Below are positions 1,145 to 58,687 of a stretch of DNA of 64,000 bases, one piece after another; the first letter of the stretch is position 1, and the number at the start of each line of letters is the position of its first letter. The DNA lies in IMG/VR virus record IMGVR_UViG_3300009826_000019, positions 43,941 to 107,940 of that record, one strand, 5' to 3'. Position numbers and translations under genes: made by a program. This DNA comes from a virus. Lineage: Duplodnaviria > Heunggongvirae > Uroviricota > Caudoviricetes. The notes under the pieces were generated by a model. That model ran no database searches. It had not been told where the DNA came from and worked only from the letters and a program-made list of their open reading frames with translations.

Positions 1145-1218
1145 GTGCGCGTACCCAAAATGGTTAAGGGGGCAGTCTGCAAAACTGTTTTGTGCAGGTT
1201 CGAGTCCTGTCGCGCACT
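1145..1218 (+). tRNA. tRNA-Cys (GCA)
   Basis: Manual fold: acceptor GTGCGCG/CGCGCAC; anticodon stem GCAGT/ACTGT; loop CTGCAAA; T-arm GCAGG-TTCGAGT-CCTGT. Confidence 0.65.
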
Positions 1219-1317
1219 CTATAAAAACCGTATAAAATAATCGTATTAACATTAACGTTTCTGAATTTGGTTATATGCGGTTTTTTTCTTTTGATAACAA
1301 TAACAAATAAAAACATA

Positions 1318-15179: not shown

Positions 15180-15349
15180 AAAACAAAAGATATGATAATG
15201 TTTTATGAAATATTAAATTATGTTTTGCTTGGTATGGTCATATTTTGGTCTATTTGGGGGGTTGCTTTGTGTGTTGGATTGATTGGCGCAATTATCAAAT
15301 TTACAATCGAAGCGTTTACAGGAAAATAAAAAATGTTATTCCGACATAA

Positions 15350-15389
15350 CATCGGAATAACATTGAAAAATTATAATGAATAGTATAAG
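15350..15389 (+). promoter_or_regulatory. PeSL-like element P22 inside a perfect 12-bp inverted repeat
   Basis: ATGTTATTCCGA-CATAACA-TCGGAATAACAT. Confidence 0.5.
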
Positions 15390-28500: not shown

Positions 28501-28572
28501 AGCGGTGTATTTCAATGGTTAGAATGACGGTCTCCAAAACCGTAGATGGGAGTTCGAGTCTCTCCACCGCTG
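28501..28572 (+). tRNA. tRNA-Trp (CCA)
   Basis: Acceptor AGCGGTG/CACCGCT; anticodon arm ACGGT-CTCCAAA-ACCGT; T-arm GGGAG-TTCGAGT-CTCTC; discriminator G then an encoded CCA. Confidence 0.75.
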
Positions 28573-28617
28573 CCAAGTGGGTTTAACACCCCCTGTTATT
28601 CATATTTTTTAAGAAAA

Positions 28618-31606: not shown

Positions 31607-31987
31607 TTAATATACTATTTCAATGAAATTAAACTTTAATTTAATGATAAAGGCATACTCCTCTCCCGATTCTAACATATCGTCATCATCGTGTTCATAA
31701 AACCAATTGATTGTTACACCCTTGTTGGTTTCATTAACTTTTTCCAATTTCTTGAAAACATCTAACAAACATTTGGAAGTACCTGTATTAAAGTATTCCA
31801 ATTTTATGTTGACGATTGTTTCCGGTTTTGCTGTTTTAACATAACCGTCTATCCATTCGACCAGGGGTATGAAAAAATCAATTGAATTTTCAAGAAGTGA
31901 CCTTCCTTTAATTTCAAGTAATCCCTGTTCAGCATCAAATACAATAGTCGGGGTTCGTGCCGTTCCTTCTAATATTAGTGTGTCCAT
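31607..31987 (-). CDS. DUF1987 (SiaC-like) protein
   Basis: Recalled family signature: LEGT..TPTIVFDAE.G.LEIKGRS...FNTGTSKCLLDVFKKL...INWFYEHDDDDMLESGEEY. Confidence 0.6.
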   Translation of the reverse strand: MDTLILEGTARTPTIVFDAEQGLLEIKGRSLLENSIDFFIPLVEWIDGYVKTAKPETIVNIKLEYFNTGTSKCLLDVFKKLEKVNETNKGVTINWFYEHDDDDMLESGEEYAFIIKLKFNFIEIVY

Positions 31988-36665: not shown

Positions 36666-37499
36666 TTACCTCCCCACTTGTGGTAAATTAATCAAAGGTA
36701 CACCGGAACCACCACTATACATAGGGAGTTTTCCATCCCACTTTTCGATAGCGTATTGTTGAACGAGTAACATATTAAGTGATGCTGCAACAACCCTGTT
36801 GTAGTATGCTTCGCCGTCACCCTTAATTTTCAAGGCTTCCGCTTCACCACGCGCTTTAGTTACTTCGATTTCCGCTTGTGCTCTTGCACGAGCGACCTCA
36901 TTTTCCGCCCTCATCGCTTCCTGTACCATTCGGTTTCTTGAATCAATCGCCTCTACCAAACTTGCCGGTGGTGCAATCGCAGCCGTAAATTCAACAACCT
37001 GAAAACCTTGACTACCTAACGATTGTTCGAGCATTTCTCGGACTTGTGCCTCAAACTCACCACGCTTCGCCATTAATTCATCGGATGTGAAGAGGTTCCC
37101 AACAGTTCGATAAGCGTCAAACACACAGGTTAGAATAAATCCTTGTTCGATTTCCTTTATGGGTCTACGATATGTTAAAAACACATCAATCGCCTTATCG
37201 GGATTCAAACGGTACGCCAAGTTTGGTGTGATACGGAAAATTGCCGCATCCTTCGCATTAACGGTGATTTCACCATACGAAACTCGTTGTACGTACACCG
37301 GATACTGATGTACACTCTGTGTAAAGGGGTTAAACCACACAAAACCACGTACAGTTCCCATTACACCACCTTGTTTCTCTTCCGAAACACTCCACTTGTG
37401 GAATTTAATACCAACCGAGGTCGAATCGACCGTGGTACAACTTTGGGCGAACATCATAATCGCCACTAAACTCAAAATCCAAAAACTTCCTTTCTTCAT
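36666..37499 (-). CDS. SPFH/band-7 (stomatin/prohibitin/HflC-like) lipoprotein
   Basis: Signal with lipobox MFAQSC; SPFH core plus coiled-coil EAMRAENEVARARAQAEIEVTKARGEAEA. Confidence 0.75.
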   Translation of the reverse strand: MKKGSFWILSLVAIMMFAQSCTTVDSTSVGIKFHKWSVSEEKQGGVMGTVRGFVWFNPFTQSVHQYPVYVQRVSYGEITVNAKDAAIFRITPNLAYRLNPDKAIDVFLTYRRPIKEIEQGFILTCVFDAYRTVGNLFTSDELMAKRGEFEAQVREMLEQSLGSQGFQVVEFTAAIAPPASLVEAIDSRNRMVQEAMRAENEVARARAQAEIEVTKARGEAEALKIKGDGEAYYNRVVAASLNMLLVQQYAIEKWDGKLPMYSGGSGVPLINLPQVGR

Positions 37500-37563: not shown

Positions 37564-38562
37564 TTACTTAAAAACGTTACGATTTTCCCTAAAGAATTTC
37601 AATAACGTGGTTTCAGACCAACTAACCCTTTCGTCTGAACGAGAGGTTGGGGCAAACTTTTGTTCTATCGCGTCAATATACATTGTGTGAGAAAAATCAT
37701 CACCTTGATAATTTTCTTCCCAATATTTCGGCGGAATCTTGTTTTCCATATCCAACTGCTCAATAGAGAGGTTGTCGAAACTGATAACATTGGTGTAAGA
37801 TACAATTTTAATAATATTCCGATCCCATTCCACAATATTATTCTTAATATCCTCTGAATAAGATTTATAGTAATCTAATCCTCTACCAAACTCTTTATAA
37901 CCAAGCAATAGAAACTTTCGTAATCCGAAGCGGTCTCTTAACTGTGTTATAATTTCCGGTGTGTGTAGACCTATAATAAGGTGCGCAACTGTGTGTTCAT
38001 ACTTCAAAAAATACTCTTCGTCTGCTGAACACTTATCAATACCTTCTATTGGAATTGATACACCTAACCCATAAATCAATTTTTCTTCCATATAACGTTT
38101 CAATTCAACCGCATTACTTCCATGTAAGTGGTGAAAATTAACCGTCAAACTAGGGAATATCTTTTTTGTTTGACAGAATTGAAGAAGTAGTGGGAGGTCG
38201 GGATGTGATAATGGATTACCGCCGCCGACTGCCATTTCCTGTCCACCTGGTAACACATCCAAAACTTCTATCAACGCATTTATATCAGCGTGTTTTCCGT
38301 GAAAATGTGATTTTTCATGACAAAAAGCACAGGGTTTAAAATCACCCATACCATATTTAGATGGTATGCCCACACATTGGTTTGTGATTTTTATATCCAT
38401 ACTGTTCGGATAGTCAAACACAACAGGTTTGGTTTCGTCAAACTCCATTATTCGTGTACCATCTTCAAAAAGTTGGACTTTTACATTACCGTTTTGGTAG
38501 TTTATTATTTCTTTCATTGTGTTTTTTAAATTAACAATCATTTCCGAATTTTCCAAAAGCAA
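37564..38562 (-). CDS. radical SAM-like enzyme with non-canonical Cx14CxxC cluster motif
   Basis: NQC-VGIPSKYGMGDFKP-C-AF-C (C-x14-C-x2-C) followed by GGGNPLSHPDL, a GGEP-like SAM motif. Confidence 0.5.
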   Translation of the reverse strand: MLLENSEMIVNLKNTMKEIINYQNGNVKVQLFEDGTRIMEFDETKPVVFDYPNSMDIKITNQCVGIPSKYGMGDFKPCAFCHEKSHFHGKHADINALIEVLDVLPGGQEMAVGGGNPLSHPDLPLLLQFCQTKKIFPSLTVNFHHLHGSNAVELKRYMEEKLIYGLGVSIPIEGIDKCSADEEYFLKYEHTVAHLIIGLHTPEIITQLRDRFGLRKFLLLGYKEFGRGLDYYKSYSEDIKNNIVEWDRNIIKIVSYTNVISFDNLSIEQLDMENKIPPKYWEENYQGDDFSHTMYIDAIEQKFAPTSRSDERVSWSETTLLKFFRENRNVFK

Positions 38563-38890: not shown

Positions 38891-39250
38891 TTATTTTACT
38901 AATTTATCTACCATTTCAATCACATCCCCGTGTAACAACATTTCTGCTTCCGATATTTCCTTAACCACAACGGGTTTAGGTTTGGGTTTCTGAAACACAT
39001 CAAATAGTCTTTTTATCCATCCAACCCCACTATCAACGGGGGTTGATTCAATGTTCACTTCTTGTTCACGAATAAATATTCTGTGTCCTACCCGCGCTGC
39101 TTCTTCTTGTTGTCGTCTTTGCATTTCTTCAAGACGTTGTTGGAACTTCGACTTTCGTGGTGGTATATCTGTTACGATAAAACGACCATTACCTTCTTGT
39201 AAACGCGCTTGCATTTCTTCAAGGCGTTGTTGAAATTTTGACTTTCTCAT
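38891..39250 (-). CDS. coiled-coil protein with internal 30-aa duplication (RKSKFQQRLEEMQ x2)
   Basis: Direct repeat visible in the protein and in DNA 39120..39250. Confidence 0.5.
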   Translation of the reverse strand: MRKSKFQQRLEEMQARLQEGNGRFIVTDIPPRKSKFQQRLEEMQRRQQEEAARVGHRIFIREQEVNIESTPVDSGVGWIKRLFDVFQKPKPKPVVVKEISEAEMLLHGDVIEMVDKLVK

Positions 39251-41109: not shown

Positions 41110-41490
41110 ATGGTACATACAATTATAATCGGTGTTTGGATGACATTGTTATTTATAACATTGTCTGTTGTTTTCGTATATATGTTTAAGAAACCAAAAC
41201 ATAATATAAACGAGGTTTTTGAACAAATATTTAAGAAACAAGTTGATTTGTTAAAAAAAATTGACGAAGAAAACACAATGCAAGTAGAGGTGTTTGATAA
41301 ACTTAACCATAATATTGTAGAGAATTATCGCATACTATTGCAAATACAAATAAAAGAATCTATTAAACACAACCCCTTTGAAACAGAACATATTCTAAAA
41401 TTATATAACGATTACATTGGTATTGCCAAATATCCGAACACAGTTTTAGATGATGCGGTTAATGAGTGGAGAAACCTATACGGTTATTAA
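41110..41490 (+). CDS. bitopic membrane protein
   Basis: Hydrophobic segment IIIGVWMTLLFITLSVVFVYMF. Confidence 0.5.
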   Translation: MVHTIIIGVWMTLLFITLSVVFVYMFKKPKHNINEVFEQIFKKQVDLLKKIDEENTMQVEVFDKLNHNIVENYRILLQIQIKESIKHNPFETEHILKLYNDYIGIAKYPNTVLDDAVNEWRNLYGY

Positions 41491-42086
41491 CAAATAAATT
41501 CCACCATACCACTATCCAAATAGAGATATGCGCCAACAATTTTTATATCACCATTTTTTTCCTTTTCACGTAAAAAACGATATTCCCGAATTGTATTTAC
41601 AGATTGTTGAACATTTGTTCGACACACCAAATCAAAGAAACCAGGATTAGACGATACGGTTTCACCACCATAAATAATATCCGCACTTGCTCGTACCGCC
41701 GGTAGTATTGGGCGAAGTTTTCCTAACAAACCCCAATCCTTTTCCTCTGTATCAATAACACGTTTGACAGCAGCACAATTATCATGTCCCAAAACCATTA
41801 CCAAATTCACGGAAGGAAAACTACAAGCAAATACCAAATCAAATAAAATTTCATTGGTAATAACATTCCCCGATGTGCGAATTGTAATAACATCACCCGC
41901 ACCCAATTTAAAAATATCTTCAACCACAATACGAGAATCTATACAAGTTACTATCACCGCTTTCGGTGTTTGTTCCTTAATACTATGGGGTTTGTCGTTA
42001 ACATATTCTTTGTTACGACATTTTAAAACTTCAAGTGTCGGGTGAGGCACTTCTTCTTTCTTTTTGAATTTAAAAAAATCTTCCAT
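41487..42086 (-). CDS. beta-class carbonic anhydrase
   Basis: CIDSR...GDVITIRTSGN...VLGHDNCAAV carries the Cys/His/Cys zinc-ligand pattern. Confidence 0.75.
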   Translation of the reverse strand: MEDFFKFKKKEEVPHPTLEVLKCRNKEYVNDKPHSIKEQTPKAVIVTCIDSRIVVEDIFKLGAGDVITIRTSGNVITNEILFDLVFACSFPSVNLVMVLGHDNCAAVKRVIDTEEKDWGLLGKLRPILPAVRASADIIYGGETVSSNPGFFDLVCRTNVQQSVNTIREYRFLREKEKNGDIKIVGAYLYLDSGMVEFIC

Positions 42087-42093
42087 TTTGATA

Positions 42094-42918
42094 TTATTTA
42101 AGGTTTTCAGTTTCGAGTTGTAATATTTCTTTCTCCAACGATGCTGTTATTTTCATAAGTGTTTTTAAATAAAACGTGTTTATAATCCACTTGTTTAAGT
42201 GTCGCCACCTGCGCTTATCCCAATCAGCCAATGGTGTATAAAACCCCAATAGTGTGGAACGATTATAAGCAGTAGGTGTATTAAGAAATGATTTACGAAA
42301 AGATAAAAAACTCCGCAATTCCCTAAACATAGCATGAAACACGGTGGCGCGACAAATTGTTCCACCACAATTTTTATCACGATACAATCCCTTGAATTTT
42401 ATCCAACGTTTTAAGACTTCACCCATATAATTTGCTTTGTATTTAAACTCTGCAACAATACCCCAATTGAAGAAAAACCATTTTGGTTCAATCCTAAACA
42501 AATGGTCTCTTACACCCATTTTGTATATTTCAACATTCGACTGACGGCGAATAGAATTAAACGGTGCCGGATTTTGACCAATAGCAAGATTACTCCAATC
42601 GCCAAAGAACATTTTGTTTTTACGCTCACCCCAATCACCCATAAAATAATAATCTCCGTAAGTGTCATATTGATAATCTGCTGAAGGACAATCTGTCATT
42701 GGACAACGATACATGTCTTCTATCGAACCATTCCCATTAGGATCAGTTACATGATCTAACGACGTTTCAACCCGTGCCTCACCAACATATTCAAGCCGCA
42801 CACGAGGTCCACAAAACGCACAACGAAAATCTTCTTTCTGACCATCTATTCTATTATCACATACCCCATAGGTTGGGGATTCATTCATACTTTCCATTTT
42901 CATATTTATTTTAAACAT
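42094..42918 (-). CDS. hypothetical protein (274 aa), co-transcribed with the carbonic anhydrase
   Basis: ORF track; minus-strand PeSL-like element upstream. Confidence 0.55.
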   Translation of the reverse strand: MFKINMKMESMNESPTYGVCDNRIDGQKEDFRCAFCGPRVRLEYVGEARVETSLDHVTDPNGNGSIEDMYRCPMTDCPSADYQYDTYGDYYFMGDWGERKNKMFFGDWSNLAIGQNPAPFNSIRRQSNVEIYKMGVRDHLFRIEPKWFFFNWGIVAEFKYKANYMGEVLKRWIKFKGLYRDKNCGGTICRATVFHAMFRELRSFLSFRKSFLNTPTAYNRSTLLGFYTPLADWDKRRWRHLNKWIINTFYLKTLMKITASLEKEILQLETENLK

Positions 42919-42954
42919 TTATATCAAATATAATATCACAAAATTATTCCGATC
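42915..42954 (-). promoter_or_regulatory. PeSL-like early promoter element (minus strand)
   Basis: Minus strand reads TAGGATCGGAATAATTTTGTGATATTATATTTGATATAAATG...ATG of 42918. Confidence 0.5.
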
Positions 42955-43062
42955 CTATAAAGATATTATTCTGAATGAAATGTTTGTGTAACTAAAAATA
43001 CACTATTTTCCACTGTTTCCCAATTTATTTTATTTTTCTATTTATAAAAAATACAAAAAACC

Positions 43063-43827
43063 ATGAGTATTCAAGAAGAAGAAATAAAGAAATTGAAGGA
43101 GGAAAATGAGTTGTTGAAAAAGCGTTTGGATAACGCAAACAAACTCAAATCAACCTTTCTTGCTAATATGAGCCACGAAATTAGAACACCGTTAAACGCT
43201 ATTGTGGGGTTTTCTAATTTTTTAACCGAATGTGAAGAATTAACCGAAAGTGAGCGCAACGAATTTATTAACATTATTCAACAAAATAATGATTACTTAT
43301 TGAAAATCATTGACGATATTTTAGAACTCTCTAAAATTGAAAGAGATCAAGTCTTTATTAATAATGTTAAACTGAAACTAAATCAGTTTTTAGGTGGATT
43401 GATTAATGAGAATAAGAAAAAAATTAACCCCAATAGGAAAGTCGAATTAATATTAGACGATGTGGATTTTATTGAAAATTGTCTTATTGAAGTTGATGCC
43501 ATAAAATTAGAGCAGATACTTAATAATCTTATTGATAATGCTATTAGATTCACATTGAGTGGATATGTGTTAGTTGGGTATAAACAAATACCGGGTTTCA
43601 TTGAATTTTATGTTGAAGATAGTGGAGTTGGAATACCCAAAGAAAAATTAGAACACGTTTTTAATAGTTTTTACCAAATCAATAGTGCTATATGTCCCGA
43701 TTCGGGAATGGGCGTTGGGTTATTTATTTCAAAAAACTATGTTAAAAGAATGGGTGGTGTTATGGGTGTAAGTTCAGTCGAAGGTGAAGGTAGTAGATTT
43801 CATTTTACCATACCATATCTTGTATAA
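43063..43827 (+). CDS. orphan cytoplasmic histidine kinase (HisKA + HATPase_c, no TM, no receiver)
   Basis: H-box MSHEIRTPLNAI; N/G boxes LNNLIDNAIRF, DSGVGIP, GMGVGL, GGVMGV. Confidence 0.8.
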   Translation: MSIQEEEIKKLKEENELLKKRLDNANKLKSTFLANMSHEIRTPLNAIVGFSNFLTECEELTESERNEFINIIQQNNDYLLKIIDDILELSKIERDQVFINNVKLKLNQFLGGLINENKKKINPNRKVELILDDVDFIENCLIEVDAIKLEQILNNLIDNAIRFTLSGYVLVGYKQIPGFIEFYVEDSGVGIPKEKLEHVFNSFYQINSAICPDSGMGVGLFISKNYVKRMGGVMGVSSVEGEGSRFHFTIPYLV

Positions 43828-43903: not shown

Positions 43904-44395
43904 ATGAGCGATTTATTGATTAAAATGCCGTTGGTTTACGAACCATTAAGACAAAATAGGTTTCTGTTGAGGTTTCCTTCTGATCTTGGAATACAAGAAT
44001 GGTGGGTAAAAGACACTGTTAGACCAACTTTGGAACTACCGTCAAAAGAAATTGAATTTATGAATACCTCAACTTGGATTACAGGAAGATACAAGTGGAA
44101 GGCAATGACTGTTAAGTTAAGAGATACTATTGGTCCTTCTACAAGTCAAGCTGTGATGGAGTGGGTACGTTTACATGCGGAATCTGTGACCGGCCGTATG
44201 GGTTACGCCGCTGGTTACAAACGTAATTGTGAATTGGAAATGTTAGACCCAACCGGTGTTGTTGTTCAAAAATGGATATTGGTGAATTGTATGTTATCAG
44301 GTGATATTAATTTCGGAAGTTTAAGTTATACATCGGAAGAAATTGCTGAAATAGATTTTTCTATACAACCCGACTATTGTGTATTAGCATACTAA
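43904..44395 (+). CDS. tail tube protein, T4 gp19-like
   Basis: 163 aa; recalled T4 gp19 ends F.RPN.F and LALDYWE resemble YEPLRQNRFLLRF and SIQPDYCVLAY. Confidence 0.6.
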   Translation: MSDLLIKMPLVYEPLRQNRFLLRFPSDLGIQEWWVKDTVRPTLELPSKEIEFMNTSTWITGRYKWKAMTVKLRDTIGPSTSQAVMEWVRLHAESVTGRMGYAAGYKRNCELEMLDPTGVVVQKWILVNCMLSGDINFGSLSYTSEEIAEIDFSIQPDYCVLAY

Positions 44396-45898: not shown

Positions 45899-46243
45899 TT
45901 AGGATTTTTCTAACATTTCGATTGCAGCACCGATATTGGGTGTGATATTTAATATAGTATCAAGTTGTGATATAAAAATCAGGCGTTCCACCGCTTCGTT
46001 CAATCCACTGAGGATAAATTTACCACCGGCGTTTTTACACAACCTGTGGGCAACAAGAATTGCACCTAAGCCGGAAGAGTCACAGTATTTGCACATTTCC
46101 AAGTTCAAAATAATGTTCTTCTCACCATTCCCTGATATTAAGACTAATTCGGATTTGAGTGTTGGTGCAATATGTGTGTCTAATTTTTGTTGTTGTACAC
46201 TGATAACGGTGTGTGTAACGTTTTGGTCAATTTTTAAGTTCAT
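45899..46243 (-). CDS. STAS-domain protein (anti-sigma-factor antagonist-like)
   Basis: 114 aa; LDTHIAPTLKSEL...LEMCKYCDSSGLGAIL...GGKFILSGLNEAVERL has SpoIIAA-like topology. Confidence 0.65.
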   Translation of the reverse strand: MNLKIDQNVTHTVISVQQQKLDTHIAPTLKSELVLISGNGEKNIILNLEMCKYCDSSGLGAILVAHRLCKNAGGKFILSGLNEAVERLIFISQLDTILNITPNIGAAIEMLEKS

Positions 46244-46898: not shown

Positions 46899-48599
46899 AT
46901 GTACAAAAATAATTATGCAACCATAGAAGAGAGTATAGGTAGGATGCAGAAACTTATGGGCAACACCGCGCCGGTGGTTCGCACGGAACAAGTGCTTGGA
47001 AACATTGAAAAGGTGTATAGGGGTCATGATAATAATGCTTATGCTATTGTAAAAGAAAATTCACACTACTATTTAAAAGTATCAGGAAAAACATCAGATT
47101 TGTCTTTGAACGATTTTGAATATTTGGGTGGAAACAGACAATGTAAAAATCTGTATGAATATAGTTCCTTTGCCAATGCAGAGAAGTTCCTTAAAGAACA
47201 TTTAATTACCTTGAACCAACAGGTTAACAACCAAGAATTACTTAAAGAAGAAGCAAAACGTGTTGATACCAACCTTGAAAAAACCGCTACTTCAACAGCA
47301 ATGCGCAGTGAAATAGACCGTATTCGTGAGATTATGGAAAACACCAATAGAATTAATAAAGGTGGTAGTGCAAGTGTTGTTAAGAAATCTCTAAACGAAA
47401 AAGTAAATATCGCTAACGAAGAGAGTGGTATGATTACCGATAGTGTGAACGAAGAACCCGTAAACGAAATTATTAGCAATGCTATTAAAAATGTTGCTAG
47501 TGGAATTGGTAATATGGGTGCCGGTGTTATTCACGGTCAAACAACAGAAGGAAGCGAAGAACCTGTGAATGAATTTGTCAGTAACGCCATAAAAAACGTT
47601 GCTAGTGGAATTGGTAATATGGGTGCCGGTGTTATTCACGGTCAAACAACAGAAGGAAGCGAAGACGACGAACTTGAACTCGAATTAGACGGTGATGACG
47701 AATTTGATTTAGACGACGAATTTGACAGCGAAGAAGAAAATGAATTTGAAGAAGATTTGGAAGACGAATTTGACGGTGAAGAAGACGAAGAAATGTCAAT
47801 GCTAAATGCTTTAATGGATAAGTTGAATAGTATTGAAGAAAAATTAGACGGTGCTGACAGCGAAGAAGGTGAATTTGAAATAGATTTAGACGACGATAGC
47901 GAAGGTGAATTTGATTTAGACGAATGTGGTGTAGTTGGTGAAGGTGACGATATTGAAGAAGCGTTTCTATCTGACAAACTCAACGCAAAATATGGTACAT
48001 TACCAAAACAAGCCGATGAAGCAAAAGCAAATTTTGAAAGAGTTATCACATCTTGGTTGGAAAGAGACCGACCTGGTATGAGTCCAACAGAATTAGCAAA
48101 CGCACTTAAAGCAAAAATAGACGAAATAGTTGCCGAAGAAGAATCAGACGATATTGATAACCCACTGTTTGATGACCCCGATGACAGAATGACGGGTACT
48201 ATGGGTGAAGCCAATATGAAAAGAATGGTTCAAAAAATTATTAAAGAAACTATTAGTACAATCGCTTCTGATGTAACAAAAGATAATTTTGGATATACTA
48301 ACGCCGAACCGGATAGTAAAGGTAGAACGAGTTTTGATAACCCAAAAGCCGAAAAAGAAATTGGTTTAGGTAATCACCACGAAGATACACTTGATCAAAT
48401 TAAATCAACAACAGGAAATCATTCTAAACCTTCAACAGGTAGTACACCAGCAGGTAAAGTTGCTAACGTTATTGACGATATAGAAGTTGAAATCGTTGAT
48501 TGTTGTGAGTCAAAAAACAAAAAACCTCTCTACATTGTAGAACAAGACGGAACAGTTATTGGTAAAATTGCACGTGAAACGTTGAAGAAGCGTAAATAA
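46899..48599 (+). CDS. highly acidic low-complexity protein (566 aa) with 37-aa tandem duplication; putative scaffold/internal head protein
   Basis: EEPVNE(I/F)(I/V)SNAIKNVASGIGNMGAGVIHGQTTEGSE x2; long D/E tracts; antisense ORFs rejected. Confidence 0.55.
   Translation: MYKNNYATIEESIGRMQKLMGNTAPVVRTEQVLGNIEKVYRGHDNNAYAIVKENSHYYLKVSGKTSDLSLNDFEYLGGNRQCKNLYEYSSFANAEKFLKEHLITLNQQVNNQELLKEEAKRVDTNLEKTATSTAMRSEIDRIREIMENTNRINKGGSASVVKKSLNEKVNIANEESGMITDSVNEEPVNEIISNAIKNVASGIGNMGAGVIHGQTTEGSEEPVNEFVSNAIKNVASGIGNMGAGVIHGQTTEGSEDDELELELDGDDEFDLDDEFDSEEENEFEEDLEDEFDGEEDEEMSMLNALMDKLNSIEEKLDGADSEEGEFEIDLDDDSEGEFDLDECGVVGEGDDIEEAFLSDKLNAKYGTLPKQADEAKANFERVITSWLERDRPGMSPTELANALKAKIDEIVAEEESDDIDNPLFDDPDDRMTGTMGEANMKRMVQKIIKETISTIASDVTKDNFGYTNAEPDSKGRTSFDNPKAEKEIGLGNHHEDTLDQIKSTTGNHSKPSTGSTPAGKVANVIDDIEVEIVDCCESKNKKPLYIVEQDGTVIGKIARETLKKRK
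47449..47660 (+). repeat. 111-bp tandem duplication (two units) within 46899..48599
   Basis: The 3' ~65 bp of each unit are identical; the 5' halves differ at synonymous or conservative sites. Confidence 0.85.
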
Positions 48600-49394: not shown

Positions 49395-51311
49395 TTAATT
49401 AACTTCTTCCGCTTCCTGTGGTCCACCGGCGGTTGCTTTACTGAAATCAAAATCACCAAATGGGTTGTCCGCACCCATATTAGCAAACGGATTGCTTGGG
49501 TTTCCACCACCAGGGTTATTTGCCGCATACAATCTTGTTGAAATCGGTATCCACACCTCATCCATTTTCTTTGCTAACTCATCCACCTTTTCGTGGTTTT
49601 CGGTTTTAATAACTTCCTTCAATTCGTCAATCACCGTTTGGATTTTTATTTTTTCCTCATCGGTAATTTTATCACCCATTTCGTCAATTTGTTTTTCGGT
49701 TGAGAAAATTATGGAGTCCGCCTTATTCATAGCTAAAACCTTTTCCATTTTTTTCTTATCCGCTTCGGCGTTATCTTCTGCTTCACGTTTCATTCTTTCA
49801 ACCTCTTCTGACGATAATCCTGATGAAGATTGAATGGTGATATGTTGTTCTTTGTTTGTCCCTTTATCAGTTGCTTTAACAGACATAATACCGTTGGCAT
49901 CAATACTAAATGTTACCTCTATTTGTGGTGTACCGCGCCTTGCCGGTGGAATACCATCTAAATCAAATTGACCTAATAGTTTATTATCATTGAAAGAGGG
50001 GCGTTCACCTTGGGCTACGCGAATGGTTACTGCCGGTTGGTTATCAACTGCTGTGCTGAAAATTTGTGATTTTGAAACAGGGATTGTTGTGTTCGCATCA
50101 ATAAGTTTTGTGAACACACTACCCATAGTTTCGATACCTAATGAAAGTGGTGTGACATCTAAAAGTAGAACGTCTTGTGTTTCACCACTTAACACAGACC
50201 CTTGAACTGCTGCTCCAAGGGCAACAACTTGGTCGGGATGTACACTTTTGTTTGGTTTTCTCCCAAAAAACTTCTCAACAGCCTCTTGTACAGCGGGAAT
50301 ACGAGTACTACCACCAACAAGAATTACTTCGTCAATATCACTTGTGGTTATACCTGCGCTTTTCAATGCTGATTTACAAGGTTCGATTGTGCGTTTAACG
50401 ATAGTTTCTATCATTTGTTCAAATTTCGCACGTGTAATCGTTTGCACGAGGTGTTTTGGTACACCGTCAACCGGCATAATGTATGGAAGATTTATTTCTG
50501 TTTGAACTGAACTTGACAACTCAATTTTCGCCTTCTCAGCGGCTTCTTTCAGGCGTTGTAATGCCATTGGGTCTTTTTTCAAATCAATGGCGTATTCCTT
50601 ATTAAATTCGTCAGCAAGATAATTTATAATGACATGGTCAATATCATCACCCCCCAACCTTGTATCGCCGTCAGTGGATTTGACTTCAAACACACCACCA
50701 CCGAGTTCAAGTATTGATATATCGAATGTACCCCCACCGAAGTCAAATACAGCAATTTTCATATCGTCTTTCTTATCTAAACCAAAAGCCAATGCTGCTG
50801 CCGTAGGTTCATTAATTATACGAGCGACTTCTAATCCGGCTATTTCACCCGCTTCTTTGGTTGCTTGACGCTGTGAATCGGAAAAATAAGCCGGTACAGT
50901 GATAACTGCTTTAACCACCTCTGTTCCAAGAAAATCTTCCGCTGTTTTCCGCATTTTTTGCAGGATTATTGCTGAAATTTCTTGTGGGGAATATTCTTTA
51001 TTTTCAATTTTAACACGAATAGTGTCATTAGTACCACTTACAAGTTCGTATGCAACTTTATCCTTTTCGTTGTTGATTGAACTATATTTTTCACCCATAA
51101 AACGCTTTATGGAATAAACCGTTTTTGTTGGATTAGTTACCGATTGGCGTTTCGCGGAATCTCCCACAACACGCTCACCGTCTTTTATAAAACCAACAAT
51201 TGAGGGGGTGGTGTCCTTCCCCTCACCGTTTGGAATAACCATTGGCTTACCACCTTCTACTACTGAAACACAAGAGTTACTTGTGCCTAAATCTATACCT
51301 ATTATTTTCAT
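49395..51311 (-). CDS. dnaK: Hsp70 chaperone DnaK
   Basis: [17 protein letters not shown]...; full-length 638 aa with canonical ATPase and substrate-binding regions. Confidence 0.9.
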
Positions 51312-51328
51312 ATTAAATATTTATTTTT

Positions 51329-51796
51329 TCAATTTATATCAATTTTTCTAATTGTGGGTTGTTCGGTAGAACTCCACATTTTATCTATAACAATCTCCAA
51401 AATACCATCCACAATATGTGAAGTAGTAGTATCTAAATCACAATCTTTTGGAATGGTAAATGTTTCTTTACCGGGTTTTGTGTTGAAATGAAAACCATTA
51501 TCACGTGGTTTATACTCCACAGTTAGAGTATAATCTTGTAATGTGATTTCAATATCATTTTTTGATAATCCTGGAACCAACAATTCAATCGAATGAGTGT
51601 GTGCATCACTCTCGATATGACAGTTTGATCTACCTATACCGTATGATACAGTATAACTTGGTGGCGCAATTATGTCTTGCGCACGTGGGAGAATACCCCA
51701 CCATGGGCTTGTATCCTCACTTGGTAAAAAATCACCCACATGAAATCTATATGGATAATTACCTGTACCTGTTCTTATGTTACAACAACTTTTCAT
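51329..51796 (-). CDS. small heat-shock protein (Hsp20/alpha-crystallin family)
   Basis: 155 aa; ACD-like LLVPGLSKNDIEITLQDYTLTVE...GILEIVIDK. Confidence 0.75.
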   Translation of the reverse strand: MKSCCNIRTGTGNYPYRFHVGDFLPSEDTSPWWGILPRAQDIIAPPSYTVSYGIGRSNCHIESDAHTHSIELLVPGLSKNDIEITLQDYTLTVEYKPRDNGFHFNTKPGKETFTIPKDCDLDTTTSHIVDGILEIVIDKMWSSTEQPTIRKIDIN

Positions 51797-51908: not shown

Positions 51909-52160
51909 TCATACTTGTCCTTCATCTACTGACACCTTTGCAGTATTGAACCGGCGTGAAATACGACCTCTTGTCAGATCGTATGGCGACATTTCTATTT
52001 CGACTTTATCACCAACTAAAATTTTAACGTAGTTTTTGCGTATTTTACCTGATATTACACACAGCACCATGTGTTCGTTTTCCAACTCAACGCGAAAGGT
52101 GGCGTTACCCAACGCTTCTGTAACTATACCTGTTTGGATTATAAGATTCTTTTTACCCAT
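51909..52160 (-). CDS. infA: translation initiation factor IF-1
   Basis: [57 protein letters not shown] nearly collinear with bacterial IF-1 as recalled. Confidence 0.85.
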
Positions 52161-52521
52161 TTTCTTTTTTTATAAATTGTTTTAAATATTTCATTTCGAT
52201 ATGTTTCTTAATAATATCCCCATGACATGACTTCGGCGCACAAAAACAACCAAGACATATGTTTTCACCACGTATATACATATCATATATTTCGTCTATT
52301 TTCTCTCTAAATGTGGGGTTATTTTCATAGTTTTCAAGAAAATATTCTTGGTATTTTGCAATTGCGGTTTCTCTATCTGATACCGTGTATTGCGCTAACG
52401 TTCCTGTTTTGGTACTATATGGATTACCCAATATGTTATTTTCTCTGTTTCTACCTATGTAGAAATACACACCATCGTTTGGGGTGTGTTTATTAATGTT
52501 TATTACTTCTATACTTCCCAC
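52153..52521 (-). CDS. DUF4326-family protein
   Basis: [15 protein letters not shown] ... [15 protein letters not shown] signature. Confidence 0.55.
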
Positions 52522-57802: not shown

Positions 57803-57855
57803 ATCATTTTTTCTATAAATATACAGTATTTTAAAATAACATTGAATTATATGTG

Positions 57856-57936
57856 AGCGGATAGTGGGACTCGAACCCACACGCCTTTCGGCACTAGTTC
57901 CTAAGACTAGCGCGTATACCATTCCGCCATATCCGC
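57856..57936 (-). tRNA. tRNA-Leu (TAG), class II
   Basis: Acceptor GCGGATA/TATCCGC; anticodon arm CTAGT-CTTAGGA-ACTAG; long variable arm GCC-GAAA-GGC; T-arm GTGGG-TTCGAGT-CCCAC. Confidence 0.8.
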
Positions 57937-58002
57937 ATATTATCACAAATATTTGCACTGTTATCATAGGTATTGATAATAGTGCAATTTTATTTGATAA
58001 TG

Positions 58003-58075
58003 TATGAGTGGAGGGATTCGAACCCCCGATTTCGTGGTCCCAAACCACGCGCCATACCAACTTGACCACACCCAT
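58003..58075 (-). tRNA. tRNA-Pro (TGG)
   Basis: Anticodon arm CGTGG-TTTGGGA-CCACG; acceptor ATGGGTG/CACTCAT with one G-U. Confidence 0.7.
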
Positions 58076-58082
58076 GTTGTTG

Positions 58083-58154
58083 ATGTTCCACCAGGACTTG
58101 AACCTGGACAAACAGATTCAAAATCTGTTGTGCTAACCATTACACAATGGAACA
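58083..58154 (-). tRNA. tRNA-Gln (TTG)
   Basis: Acceptor TGTTCCA/TGGAACA; anticodon arm ACAGA-TTTTGAA-TCTGT; T-arm CCAGG-TTCAAGT-CCTGG. Confidence 0.75.
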
Positions 58155-58160
58155 ATGTAG

Positions 58161-58233
58161 CTGGGATAGTAGGTCACGATCCTACGACCTGCGGATTAAC
58201 AGTCCGATGCTCTACCAACTGAGCTATATCCCA
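58161..58233 (-). tRNA. tRNA-Asn (GTT)
   Basis: Anticodon loop CTGTTAA; T-arm GTAGG-ATCGTGA-CCTAC has an unusual A54/T58; acceptor TGGGATA/TATCCCA. Confidence 0.6.
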
Positions 58234-58240
58234 ATTTTGC

Positions 58241-58311
58241 GGTCGATGTGGGATTCGAACCCCTCCTCTACCGTGACAGGGTAACGTGCTAACCATTACA
58301 CTACACCGACC
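58241..58311 (-). tRNA. tRNA-Asp (GTC), possibly non-canonical T-stem
   Basis: Anticodon arm TTACC-CTGTCAC-GGTAG; acceptor GGTCGGT/ATCGACC; T-stem has two mismatches. Confidence 0.5.
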
Positions 58312-58317
58312 ATTTTG

Positions 58318-58393
58318 GGTGAGAGAGGAGAATCGAACCCCCGACCTTCTGATCCACAATCAGACGCTCTAACCTACCTGAGCTACCCTCACC
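58318..58393 (-). tRNA. tRNA-His (GTG) with encoded G-1
   Basis: Extra 5' G pairs with discriminator C73; anticodon arm TCTGA-TTGTGGA-TCAGA. Confidence 0.75.
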
Positions 58394-58401
58394 ATATATT
58401 G

Positions 58402-58474
58402 TAGTCGGTACGGGACTCGAACCCGTTTCTCCACCTTGAAAGGGTGGTGTCCTGACCAATTAGACGAACCGACC
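58402..58474 (-). tRNA. tRNA-Glu (TTC)
   Basis: Anticodon arm CCACC-CTTTCAA-GGTGG; T-arm ACGGG-TTCGAGT-CCCGT. Confidence 0.8.
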
Positions 58475-58483
58475 ATATTTTTG

Positions 58484-58568
58484 TGGAAAGGGTAGGATTC
58501 GAACCTACGAAAGTCCGAAGACAGCGGAGTTACAGTCCGCCCCAATTGACCAACTATGGGACCTTTCC
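58484..58568 (-). tRNA. tRNA-Tyr (GTA), class II
   Basis: Acceptor GGAAAGG/CCTTTCC; anticodon arm GCGGA-CTGTAAC-TCCGC; variable arm GTC-TTCG-GAC; T-arm GTAGG-TTCGAAT-CCTAC. Confidence 0.75.
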
Positions 58569-58569
58569 A

Positions 58570-58609
58570 AACATTTTATCCAAAATAATATTCACATATT
58601 ATTCCGATC
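58570..58609 (-). promoter_or_regulatory. PeSL-like promoter element inside the tRNA cluster (minus strand)
   Basis: Minus strand reads AAGATCGGAATAATATGTGAATATTATTTTGGATAAAATG just upstream of tRNA-Tyr. Confidence 0.5.
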
Positions 58610-58614
58610 TTATG

Positions 58615-58687
<73 letters not shown>

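What the first reader, a model, noticed from the sequence alone, without database searches (positions are those of the whole stretch)
41487..42954. Beta-carbonic anhydrase in a phage, co-transcribed with an unknown 274-aa Cys-containing protein from a minus-strand PeSL-like promoter
41487..42086 has the beta-CA zinc-ligand arrangement (CIDSR … HDNCAAV). It is preceded by 42094..42918 (unknown; CAFCG…CPMTDC motifs), and both lie behind a minus-strand copy of the early element at 42915..42954. An early-expressed carbonic anhydrase suggests manipulation of bicarbonate, CO2 or pH, or supply to a carboxylation step, during infection. I am not aware of this as a described phage auxiliary function.
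Basis: partly seen in the sequence, partly recalled or inferred. Interest (0 to 1): 0.55.

Follow-up and report, generated by a model that had tools for sequence, protein, structure and literature searches.

The report
Beta-carbonic anhydrase in a jumbo phage
An uncultivated 368-kb T4-related phage carries an intact but highly diverged beta-carbonic anhydrase gene behind its own repeated promoter cassette; this is a clean example of a viral gene type already reported from virome surveys, not a new kind of system.

Summary
ORF 41487-42086(-) is a full-length beta-class carbonic anhydrase (CA): Pfam PF00484, E 5e-28. It has every catalytic residue (Q39, C48-x-D50-x-R52, H101-x-x-C104).

It lies 7 nt downstream of ORF 42094-42918(-). 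That ORF sits behind one of 31 copies of a repeated promoter-like element (TCGGAATAA core; 1.04 expected by chance).

The gene is truly phage-borne. Tail tube, prohead protease, portal and tRNA genes flank it, and identical DNA was assembled in at least 3 runs.

It is not a recent host insertion. Identity to anything in 5.8 billion proteins is at most 43%, its GC matches the phage, and 25 of 74 family-conserved positions have changed.

- The 274-aa partner is not an orphan. It belongs to an uncharacterised zinc-ribbon family seen so far only in large-phage contexts (114 representatives, no known fold). None of six other genomic contexts has a CA, so the pairing is incidental.
- Its true start is probably M8 or M11, because ATG 42918 lies inside the promoter element.
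- This copy has no stem-loop, so it is only the promoter half of a PeSL (promoter-early stem-loop cassette).
- A T4-late-like TATAAATAG motif also lies upstream, so expression need not be early only.
- Beta-CAs on viral contigs were already reported, though never assayed.

Likely role, inferred: cytoplasmic bicarbonate supply for host carboxylations during replication.

The parts
41487..42086 (-). Beta-class carbonic anhydrase, 199 aa, no signal peptide (predicted cytoplasmic)
   Evidence: Pfam PF00484 E 5.3e-28, full profile. Best solved relative is Rv3588c (1YM3/2A5V), E 7e-16. NCBIfam NF011765 scores 129 bits, below its 221-bit cut-off. Nearest homologues are 36-43% identical.
41931..41945 (-). 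C48-I-D50-S-R52: first zinc ligand plus the Asp-Arg dyad
   Evidence: C48, D50 and R52 are invariant columns in alignment A1.
41775..41786 (-). H101-D-N-C104: second and third zinc ligands. The following residue is Ala105, where at least 90% of the nearest homologues have Gly.
42094..42918 (-). 274-aa ORF (more likely 267 or 264 aa, starting at 42897 or 42888). Member of an uncharacterised zinc-ribbon protein family seen so far only in large-phage contexts.
   Evidence: 114 cluster representatives at E<=1e-3. Alignment A2 shows conserved C33, C36, H56, C72, C77, W84, G88, R125, E130, Y160, G166. None of the 50 members matches any PHROG, and Pfam gives only 1-2 members with sub-threshold hits to generic zinc-ribbon models. 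AF2 model pLDDT 86, pTM 0.74, with no fold match.
42688..42822 (-). Predicted zinc ribbon: C33-x2-C36 ... H56 ... C72-x4-C77
   Evidence: Invariant or nearly invariant columns in A2 and A3.
42915..42958 (-). Copy of the repeated early-type promoter-like element (ATAGGATCGGAATAATTTTGTGATATTATATTTGATATAAATGT)
   Evidence: Core occurs 31 times against 1.04 expected.
42957..42975 (-). Degenerate half-copy of the same element (TTCAGAATAATATCTTTAT, 15 of 19 matches to ATCGGAATAATATCCTAAT). It lies 22 nt upstream of, and in register with, the full copy.
   Evidence: Read; the 10-mer GAATAATATC occurs 15 times in the window. Possibly a scar of recombination between cassettes (inference).
43038..43046 (-). 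T4-late-promoter-like motif TATAAATAG, 120 nt upstream of ATG 42918 on the same strand
   Evidence: 12 copies against 1.75 expected, 0 of 100 shuffles reach 12. Eleven lie in 28-62 kb, including 98 nt upstream of the portal gene.

Best explanation
The window is part of an uncultivated, AT-rich, roughly 368-kb T4-related jumbo phage.

At some point well in the past its lineage captured a cytoplasmic beta-class carbonic anhydrase. The nearest relatives today are the 209-aa signal-less enzymes of Flavobacteriaceae. The gene now sits as the second gene of a two-gene minus-strand unit, in a stretch with no detectable synteny to other phages, between structural genes.

The unit carries one copy of the phage's highly repeated early-type promoter cassette. 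Further upstream it also carries a late-type TATAAATAG motif. The CA is therefore probably made with the upstream zinc-ribbon protein, early and possibly throughout infection.

The enzyme keeps every residue needed for zinc binding and catalysis, so it most likely still interconverts CO2 and bicarbonate in the infected cell's cytoplasm.

The most probable benefit is keeping bicarbonate available for the host's bicarbonate-dependent steps while a very large genome is replicated at ambient CO2. Those steps are carbamoyl-phosphate synthetase and the purine carboxylation step, acetyl-CoA carboxylase, and PEP or pyruvate carboxylase.

The upstream protein is an unrelated passenger of the same transcription unit, not a CA partner.

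Shown: family membership, an intact active site, phage residence, divergence, motif copies, and lack of linkage between the two families.
Inferred: catalytic activity, cytoplasmic location, co-transcription, timing, and the physiological role.
For: Family and active site:
- PF00484 E 5e-28, full length.
- Q39, C48, D50, R52, H101 and C104 align to Rv3588c and are invariant in A1.

Phage residence:
- Portal, gp19-like tail tube, an HNH endonuclease and 11 tRNAs are in the window, and a Peptidase_S77 prohead protease lies on the same contig.
- The same 20.6 kb is 100% identical in an independent ENA assembly, and the 2.9-kb region is identical in two Logan assemblies.
- The longest contig is 367,985 bp.

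Old acquisition, maintained:
- Best identity is 43% among 5.8 billion proteins.
- GC is 35.5% against 34.4% for the window.
- It differs at 25 of 74 columns that are at least 90% conserved in its 23 nearest homologues. Those homologues differ at 0-12 (median 2). All catalytic columns are kept.

Cytoplasmic location: no N-terminal signal or lipobox, unlike most homologues in A1.

Operon: 7-nt gap with no minus-strand terminator.

Promoter motifs.

No linkage with the partner family: six other contexts lack a CA.

Bicarbonate logic: CA is needed at ambient CO2 in several microbes because bicarbonate feeds the purine carboxylase, carbamoyl-phosphate synthetase, acetyl-CoA carboxylase, and PEP and pyruvate carboxylases (PMC6915039).
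Against: - There are no activity, expression or host data.
- The gene is a singleton. No related phage carries it, so conservation cannot be used to argue for selection. All available copies are nucleotide-identical, so no dN/dS estimate is possible.
- Several near-invariant non-ligand positions have changed: F67I in the hydrophobic pocket motif, G105A next to the zinc ligand, and G82F/S83D/E85V. These could lower or alter activity.
- No bicarbonate-consuming enzyme is encoded in the 64-kb window. The other roughly 300 kb of the genome was not seen.
- It scores below the NCBIfam subfamily cut-off.
Confidence: 0.45

Rival explanations
1. The enzyme is an active CA, but it serves pH or ion homeostasis of the infected cell, for example buffering after membrane depolarisation or during heavy nucleotide turnover, rather than feeding carboxylases.
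For: The same active-site evidence applies. A role of bacterial CAs in intracellular pH regulation is documented (PMC6915039). No carboxylase was found in the window.
Against: Nothing in the locus points to pH. No transporters or antiporters are nearby. This cannot be told apart from the bicarbonate-supply role by sequence alone.
Confidence: 0.2
2. The beta-CA fold has been repurposed. The protein could be a hydrolase of another small linear molecule (COS or CS2, as in COS hydrolase), or a poorly active or regulatory protein.
For: The branch is unusually long: 25 of 74 conserved columns have changed, including F67I and G105A near the active site. COS hydrolase 3VQJ is among the detectable PDB relatives, E 9e-5. 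The score is below the NCBIfam subfamily cut-off.
Against: All zinc ligands, the Asp-Arg dyad and Q39 are retained. The best matches are bona fide CAs, not COSase. The substitutions are conservative in size and hydrophobicity.
Confidence: 0.12
3. The 274-aa zinc-ribbon protein and the CA form a functional pair, for example as a zinc donor, a regulator or a scaffold.
For: The two are adjacent on the same strand with a 7-nt gap and a shared promoter region. The partner has a 4-Cys/His metal site.
Against: Six other contexts of the partner family lack any CA, by tblastn and by a PF00484-type profile: L089, L090/L091, L092, L093, L108, L109. None of the nearest CA homologues examined has such a neighbour. 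In L090 the family member sits beside a tail-tube gene with different neighbours.
Confidence: 0.07
4. The CA is a neutral passenger, a moron dropped into a variable region by cassette recombination with no selected role in infection.
For: It is a singleton. The region shares no synteny with 80 contigs carrying a 36-68% identical tail-tube gene. A half-copy of the promoter element next to the full copy suggests recombination at cassettes. PeSL cassettes are known to shuffle accessory genes (PMC2839356, PMC4122927).
Against: The ORF is intact, and every catalytic residue is kept despite more than 55% sequence divergence and full amelioration to phage GC. A neutral gene would not be expected to survive this.
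Confidence: 0.14
5. Assembly chimera or host contamination: the CA is not really in the phage genome.
For: In cultured-phage records, five of the six records hit by this CA are contigs several hundred kb long or carry cellular annotations (carbonate dehydratase, cynT, ychM), which suggests mislabelled bacterial DNA. The sixth is an unverified, unannotated scaffold. The one IMG/VR hit lies at the edge of a P2-like prophage contig.
Against: Here the gene is deep inside the contig with phage genes on both sides. Its GC is phage-like. It sits behind the phage's own promoter element. It was assembled identically in at least 3 independent assemblies.
Confidence: 0.01

Closest known systems
Mycobacterium tuberculosis beta-CA Rv3588c (CanB; PDB 1YM3, 2A5V)
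   Same: It is the best solved relative (E 7e-16, residues 37-194 aligned). It has the same Cys-His-Cys zinc site, Asp-Arg dyad and Gln.
   Different: The phage protein has a shorter N-terminal arm, CAAV instead of CGAV after the zinc ligand, and Ile instead of Phe in the G-D-x-F motif. Its activity is untested.
Signal-less 209-aa beta-CAs of Flavobacteriaceae and the PRK15219/NF011765 'carbonic anhydrase family protein' group
   Same: These are the nearest sequences overall, at 41-43% identity over 86-87% of the query. The best NCBIfam model is NF011765.
   Different: In the bacterial context examined, the gene lies next to a SulP/STAS transporter gene. Most members of the group carry a signal peptide or lipobox. 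The phage protein scores 129 bits against a 221-bit cut-off and has changed a third of the group's conserved positions.
vOTU-encoded beta-CAs reported from freshwater-sponge viromes (bioRxiv 10.64898/2026.01.21.700432) and the CA of temperate Nitrosospira phage roc1 (bioRxiv 10.64898/2026.05.02.722434)
   Same: They are beta-class CAs on viral contigs, proposed to act as auxiliary genes in carbon or pH metabolism, with conserved active sites and no assays.
   Different: Those are short vOTUs or temperate phages. Some are fused to sulphate-transporter domains, which suggests host-like genes. Here the gene is deep inside a 368-kb T4-related genome, strongly diverged from all cellular CAs, and wired to the phage's own promoter element. 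I could not compare the sequences directly.
PeSL (promoter-early stem-loop) cassettes of T4-type phages (Arbiol et al. 2010, PMC2839356; Comeau et al. 2014, PMC4122927)
   Same: It is a conserved, many-copy promoter-bearing motif in front of small variable genes. Some copies are preceded by a terminator hairpin. It is associated with accessory genes in variable regions.
   Different: The sequence is unrelated to the enterobacterial sigma-70 early promoters. Only about 8 of 31 copies have a strong upstream hairpin, and the copy at 42952 has none. Recombination at the motif cannot be shown without close relatives. Timing is unknown.
E. coli Can and other housekeeping beta-CAs required for growth in air
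   Same: This is the proposed physiological logic: catalysed CO2 hydration supplies bicarbonate to biosynthetic carboxylases (PMC6915039).
   Different: The relationship is only distant (NF007756, E 1e-4). Any requirement during phage infection is pure inference.

Membership tests
Beta-class carbonic anhydrase (Pfam PF00484 Pro_CA) | Significant full-length match above the curated threshold | tested here: met
   98.7 bits against a 25.7 cut-off, profile positions 1-156 of 156.
Beta-class carbonic anhydrase (Pfam PF00484 Pro_CA) | Zinc ligands: Cys (C-x-D-x-R) plus His-x-x-Cys | tested here: met
   C48, H101 and C104 align with the ligands of Rv3588c and are invariant in A1.
Beta-class carbonic anhydrase (Pfam PF00484 Pro_CA) | Asp-Arg dyad and the conserved Gln of the active site | tested here: met
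   D50, R52 and Q39 are invariant columns.
Beta-class carbonic anhydrase (Pfam PF00484 Pro_CA) | Zinc-dependent CO2 hydration activity | not testable with these tools
   Needs recombinant protein, or complementation of a can-deletion strain.
NCBIfam NF011765 (PRK15219) carbonic anhydrase subfamily | Score at or above the curated subfamily cut-off | tested here: not met
   129.2 bits against a cut-off of 221. It is related to this subfamily but is not a member.
PeSL (promoter-early stem-loop) cassette | Conserved multi-copy promoter motif upstream of ORFs, in the same orientation | tested here: met
   31 copies against 1.04 expected. Downstream ORF starts lie 51-74 nt away in nearly all copies.
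PeSL (promoter-early stem-loop) cassette | Stem-loop (terminator) immediately upstream of the promoter | tested here: not met
   The 48 nt upstream of the 42952 copy fold at only -1.3 kcal/mol. About 8 of 31 copies have hairpins of -13 kcal/mol or stronger.
PeSL (promoter-early stem-loop) cassette | Early transcription, and recombination at the motif between related genomes | not testable with these tools
   There is no transcriptome. No close relative was found in IMG/VR or the phage records. A half-copy at 42957-42975 is only suggestive.
Viral auxiliary metabolic gene | Metabolic gene inside a bona fide viral genome, with viral hallmark genes on both sides | tested here: met
   The tail tube lies 1 kb away on one side, and the portal and tRNA array lie beyond it. 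The prohead protease and HNH endonuclease lie on the other side.
Viral auxiliary metabolic gene | Conservation across related viruses | tested here: not met
   No related phage CA was found. Profile searches of 80 tail-tube loci were negative.

The most novel reading that the evidence does not exclude
The phage CA is a fully active cytoplasmic enzyme, expressed from tandem early- and late-type promoters. It relieves a bicarbonate bottleneck in de novo purine and pyrimidine (and lipid) synthesis while a 368-kb genome is replicated in a heterotrophic, probably Bacteroidota, host at ambient CO2. If so, this would be the first demonstrated case of a phage manipulating inorganic-carbon speciation to boost its own replication. 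A still bolder variant is not excluded but has no support: the CA feeds a CO2/bicarbonate signal into the phage's own sensor-less histidine kinase, STAS and SiaC signalling genes nearby.
Probability: 0.3. Interest if true: 0.6.

Novelty: new member of a known kind. Interest (0 to 1): 0.32.

Why it matters
Carbonic anhydrase shows up in lists of putative viral auxiliary genes. Most such cases are short contigs or prophage edges, where host contamination is hard to exclude, and none has been assayed.

This locus is a clean case. The gene is deep in a jumbo-phage genome. It has diverged far from every cellular CA while keeping the catalytic residues, and it is plugged into the phage's own promoter system. 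That makes it a good candidate for a first biochemical and genetic test of whether phages tune CO2/bicarbonate chemistry in heterotrophic hosts.

The work also defines an uncharacterised zinc-ribbon protein family, seen so far only in large-phage contexts, with a confident predicted structure and no known fold match. It further maps two over-represented regulatory motifs of an unstudied phage lineage.

Tried and rejected
- Nucleotide search of 39.5-47 kb against 50,697 phage records found no match.
- tblastn of the CA against phage records hit 6 records. Five are contigs several hundred kb long or carry cellular annotations (mislabelled bacterial DNA, by inference), and one is an unverified, unannotated scaffold.
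- IMG/VR scans with CA and partner peptides found nothing. The CA alignment gave one locus, at the edge of a P2-like prophage next to a Dam methylase.
- The word-indexed protein search made the partner look like an orphan. Exhaustive HMMER overturned that. Repeating the indexed search with the family profile added nothing useful.
- PHROGs, NCBIfam, PADLOC and a PDB sequence profile gave nothing for the partner family; Pfam gave only 1-2 members with sub-threshold hits to generic zinc-ribbon models.
- Synteny test: all 181 window ORFs of at least 70 aa were compared with 80 IMG/VR loci that carry a tail-tube homologue. Only the tube itself matched, plus the prohead protease once. Profile HMMs for both families were negative there too.
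- Searching for the promoter element elsewhere found no match in IMG/VR. Thirteen single matches in metagenome contigs turned out to be unrelated chance hits.
- The sigma-70 consensus scan of the region found no more than chance, 15 against 18.7 expected.
- Sample accessions were not found in the literature, so the habitat and host remain unknown.
- dN/dS is impossible because all copies are nucleotide-identical.
Full report
**What the window is**

The 64-kb window is AT-rich (34% GC) with strand-biased gene blocks. It encodes a T4-type portal, a gp19-like tail tube, an HNH endonuclease, DnaK- and HSP20-like chaperones, and 11 tRNAs; gene calls on an identical ENA contig add a Peptidase_S77 prohead protease. 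The proteins of the finding occur on a 367,985-bp contig.

The portal is only 33% identical to those of Microcystis phage Mel-JY01 and Flavobacterium 'immuto' phages. The DnaK is 62-66% identical to those of 630-735-kb uncultured 'huge phages'. There is no nucleotide match in 50,697 phage records. This is therefore a distant, unstudied T4-related jumbo phage. A Bacteroidota host is plausible, based on the nearest CA relatives and the TAnnTTTG-like box in the promoter element, but it is not shown.

ORF 41487-42086(-), 199 aa, matches Pfam Pro_CA end to end at E 5.3e-28. Its best solved relative is M. tuberculosis Rv3588c (1YM3/2A5V) at E 7e-16. VTCIDSR aligns on GCADSR, and GHDNCAAV aligns on GHDSCGAV.

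In an alignment with 23 of its nearest homologues, Q39, C48, D50, R52, G64, D65, R70, N74, H101 and C104 are invariant columns.

ORF 42094-42918(-) exists, with the quoted Cys motifs at C33/C36 and C72/C77. It ends 7 nt before the CA start, with no terminator-like site between them on that strand.

**The 'early element' is real**

TCGGAATAA occurs 31 times against 1.04 expected. The copies break down as follows:
- 28 on the + strand between 539 and 25725, each in front of a small + strand ORF;
- a head-to-head pair at 15336-15360;
- one inside the tRNA array (58599-58607, -);
- one at 42944-42952 (-), upstream of the 274-aa ORF.

The consensus is about atAgCATCGGAATAATATnnTAatnTTATATTnAGngtATAa, followed by an A-rich leader.

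**Corrections to the anatomy**

In the other copies the ORF start lies 51-74 nt after the T of TCGG. At this copy ATG 42918 lies at +34, inside the part of the element that is a TATAA-like box elsewhere. M8 (42897) is at +55 and M11 (42888) is at +64.

Family homologues begin at about residue 28-33 of the ORF, and residues 1-23 are disordered in the model. The protein therefore probably starts at 42897 or 42888.

Only about 8 of 31 copies are preceded by a strong hairpin, and this copy is not one of them, at -1.3 kcal/mol. It is the promoter half of a PeSL-type cassette, not a complete one (PeSL definition: PMC4122927).

A degenerate half-copy of the element lies 22 nt upstream at 42957-42975. 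It may be a scar of recombination between cassettes.

TATAAATAG, the T4 late-promoter core plus G, occurs 12 times against 1.75 expected, with 0 of 100 shuffles reaching 12. Eleven copies lie in 28-62 kb, including 98 nt upstream of the portal ORF and upstream of the STAS gene. One copy is at 43046-43038 on the minus strand, 120 nt upstream of ATG 42918. The unit therefore appears to carry tandem late-type and early-type signals. 'Early-expressed' is plausible but not exclusive, and all timing is inferred.

**Is the CA a recent host insertion or an artefact? No.**

- The same DNA is 100% identical over 20.6 kb in an ENA assembly and over the 2.9-kb region in two Logan assemblies.
- GC is 35.5% against 34.4% for the window.
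- The best identity to anything among 5.8 billion proteins is 43%.
- The nearest sequences are 209-aa signal-less CAs of Flavobacteriaceae, followed by lipoprotein or secreted CAs of Bacteroidota and Verrucomicrobiota.
- Three of these homologues were checked in context and sit in ordinary bacterial neighbourhoods. One lies next to a SulP/STAS transporter gene.
- The phage protein has changed 25 of the 74 columns that are at least 90% conserved among those relatives. The relatives themselves deviate at 0-12 (median 2). No catalytic column has changed.
- It scores 129 bits on NCBIfam NF011765, below the 221-bit cut-off.

This long branch with a preserved active site argues for an old capture kept under some functional constraint. 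Changes such as F67I and G105A leave room for altered kinetics or specificity. The protein has no signal peptide, so it should act in the cytoplasm.

**Is the pair a module? No.**

The indexed search made the 274-aa protein look like an orphan. Exhaustive HMMER found 114 cluster representatives at E<=1e-3, the best at 38-39% identity.

The family is about 200-240 aa. It has a conserved CxxC...H...Cx4C zinc ribbon, an APFGS..RK.NVEIYK motif, and Y160 and G166. None of the 50 members matches any PHROG, NCBIfam and PADLOC give nothing for the window protein, and Pfam gives only 1-2 members with sub-threshold hits to generic zinc-ribbon models.

Six other genomic contexts were examined: L089, L090/L091, L092, L093, L108 and L109. 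All are large-phage contigs carrying genes such as a gp44 clamp loader, dUTPase, Peptidase_S77, RNase H, NUDIX and an ADP-ribosyl glycohydrolase. None has a CA nearby, by tblastn or by profile. In L090 the family member lies about 1.3 kb from a tail-tube gene, as it does here, but with different genes between and after.

The simplest reading is that the zinc-ribbon gene is a more widespread phage gene and the CA is an add-on behind it.

**Distribution of the CA**

No phage relative of this CA was found:
- Nothing in IMG/VR by its own peptides.
- One distant hit at a P2-like prophage edge.
- Only likely bacterial contigs and one unverified scaffold in the phage records.
- None within 10 kb either side of the tail-tube gene in 80 contigs whose tube protein is 36-68% identical.

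Of all 181 window ORFs of at least 70 aa, only the tube itself has a homologue in those loci, plus the prohead protease once. This stretch has no detectable synteny with other phages. The 'recent host-derived' half of that criterion is not met.

**Mechanism**

Shown: an intact beta-CA gene in a phage transcription unit.

Inferred: it hydrates CO2 in the cytoplasm of the infected cell.

The best-supported physiological rationale comes from established microbiology. CA-deficient E. coli, Ralstonia, Corynebacterium and yeast cannot grow in air, because bicarbonate is the substrate of the purine carboxylase, carbamoyl-phosphate synthetase, acetyl-CoA carboxylase, and PEP and pyruvate carboxylases (PMC6915039). 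Replicating many copies of a 368-kb genome would raise exactly those demands.

My estimates are:
- about 0.95 that this is a genuine beta-CA family member;
- about 0.7 that it is an active CA;
- about 0.4-0.45 that bicarbonate supply is its main selected role.

pH buffering, a shifted substrate, or no selected role are the main alternatives. No carboxylase or transporter is encoded in the window, and the rest of the genome was not examined.

**Comparison with what is known**

Beta-CAs on viral contigs have been described. Nine vOTU-encoded CAs, all beta-class, come from freshwater-sponge viromes, and that preprint cites earlier marine and biofilm reports (10.64898/2026.01.21.700432). A temperate Nitrosospira phage also carries one (10.64898/2026.05.02.722434). 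A PHROG of unknown function (phrog_26042) also matches the CA core at E 9e-7. None has been assayed.

This locus is therefore a new member of a known kind. It is notable for how clearly it is phage-resident and how far it has diverged.

**Verdict**

Interest is modest at 0.32. The locus is a good experimental candidate, and it contributes a previously undefined phage protein family and two regulatory motifs, but it is not a new kind of system.

Noticed in passing
window 539-25733 (+), 15336-15360, 58599-58607 (-): There is an array of about 29 copies of the roughly 40-nt element ..CATCGGAATAATATnnTAAnnTTATATTnAGGGTATAA.., each in front of a small + strand ORF. A head-to-head palindromic pair lies at 15336-15360, and one copy lies inside the tRNA array. 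About 8 copies are preceded by strong hairpins with T-runs (terminator plus promoter, PeSL-like). The element is absent from IMG/VR as an exact pattern.
   Followed up: partly
window 8170, 28052, 29875, 32018, 34751, 43038, 44960, 46417, 56000, 58951, 60962, 61048: TATAAATAG (the T4 late-promoter core plus G) occurs 12 times against 1.75 expected, almost all in intergenic positions of the 28-62 kb block, including upstream of the portal gene. It is probably this phage's late promoter. No gp55-like sigma factor was looked for.
   Followed up: partly
window 43063-43827 (+), 45899-46243 (-), 31607-31987 (-): The phage encodes a set of bacterial signalling parts. One is a 254-aa histidine kinase core (HisKA plus HATPase_c) with no sensor or membrane domain, transcribed divergently from the CA unit. 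The others are a STAS anti-sigma-factor antagonist (TIGR00377) and a SiaC-family regulatory phosphoprotein (PF09345, E 4.5e-40). This could be a phage-run partner-switching or phosphorelay takeover of host regulation.
   Followed up: no
window 49395-51311 (-), 51329-51796 (-): There is a phage-encoded DnaK/HSP70 (phrog_22485, E 6.5e-246; 62-66% identical to those of 630-735-kb uncultured huge phages LR756501-3 and LR745206) with an adjacent HSP20 small heat-shock protein.
   Followed up: partly
window 43904-44395 (+): The gp19-like tail-tube gene sits alone among accessory genes. Apart from a single prohead-protease match, it is the only ORF of the window with homologues (36-68% identity) in 80 IMG/VR contigs, some of them 350-380 kb, and there is no shared synteny around it.
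   Followed up: partly
window 57855-58687 (-), 1145-1219 (+), 28501-28575 (+): There are eleven tRNA genes: a tight array of nine (Thr, Tyr, Glu, His, Asp, Asn, Gln, Pro, Leu) next to the portal gene, plus isolated Cys and Trp.
   Followed up: no
window 47447-47665, inside ORF 46899-48599 (+): An approximately 105-115-bp tandem duplication (about 90% identity between copies) lies inside a 566-aa ORF with no family match.
   Followed up: no
window 38891-39250 (-): A 119-aa ORF carries an internal near-perfect repeat (PRKSKFQQRLEEMQ twice).
   Followed up: no
L090/L091 4244-6681 (235,805-bp phage contig): In a distant phage, the homologue of the 274-aa zinc-ribbon protein also lies about 1.3 kb from, and divergent to, a tail-tube gene. 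A MYG1-like exonuclease sits between them instead of the histidine kinase, which hints at an old tube and zinc-ribbon neighbourhood with swappable inserts.
   Followed up: partly
window 37564-38562 (-), 36666-37499 (-), 52153-52521 (-): Other accessory genes are present: a radical-SAM/Fe-S oxidoreductase-like protein (phrog_16999), a Band_7/lipoprotein-like protein (phrog_200), and a DUF4326 protein.
   Followed up: no
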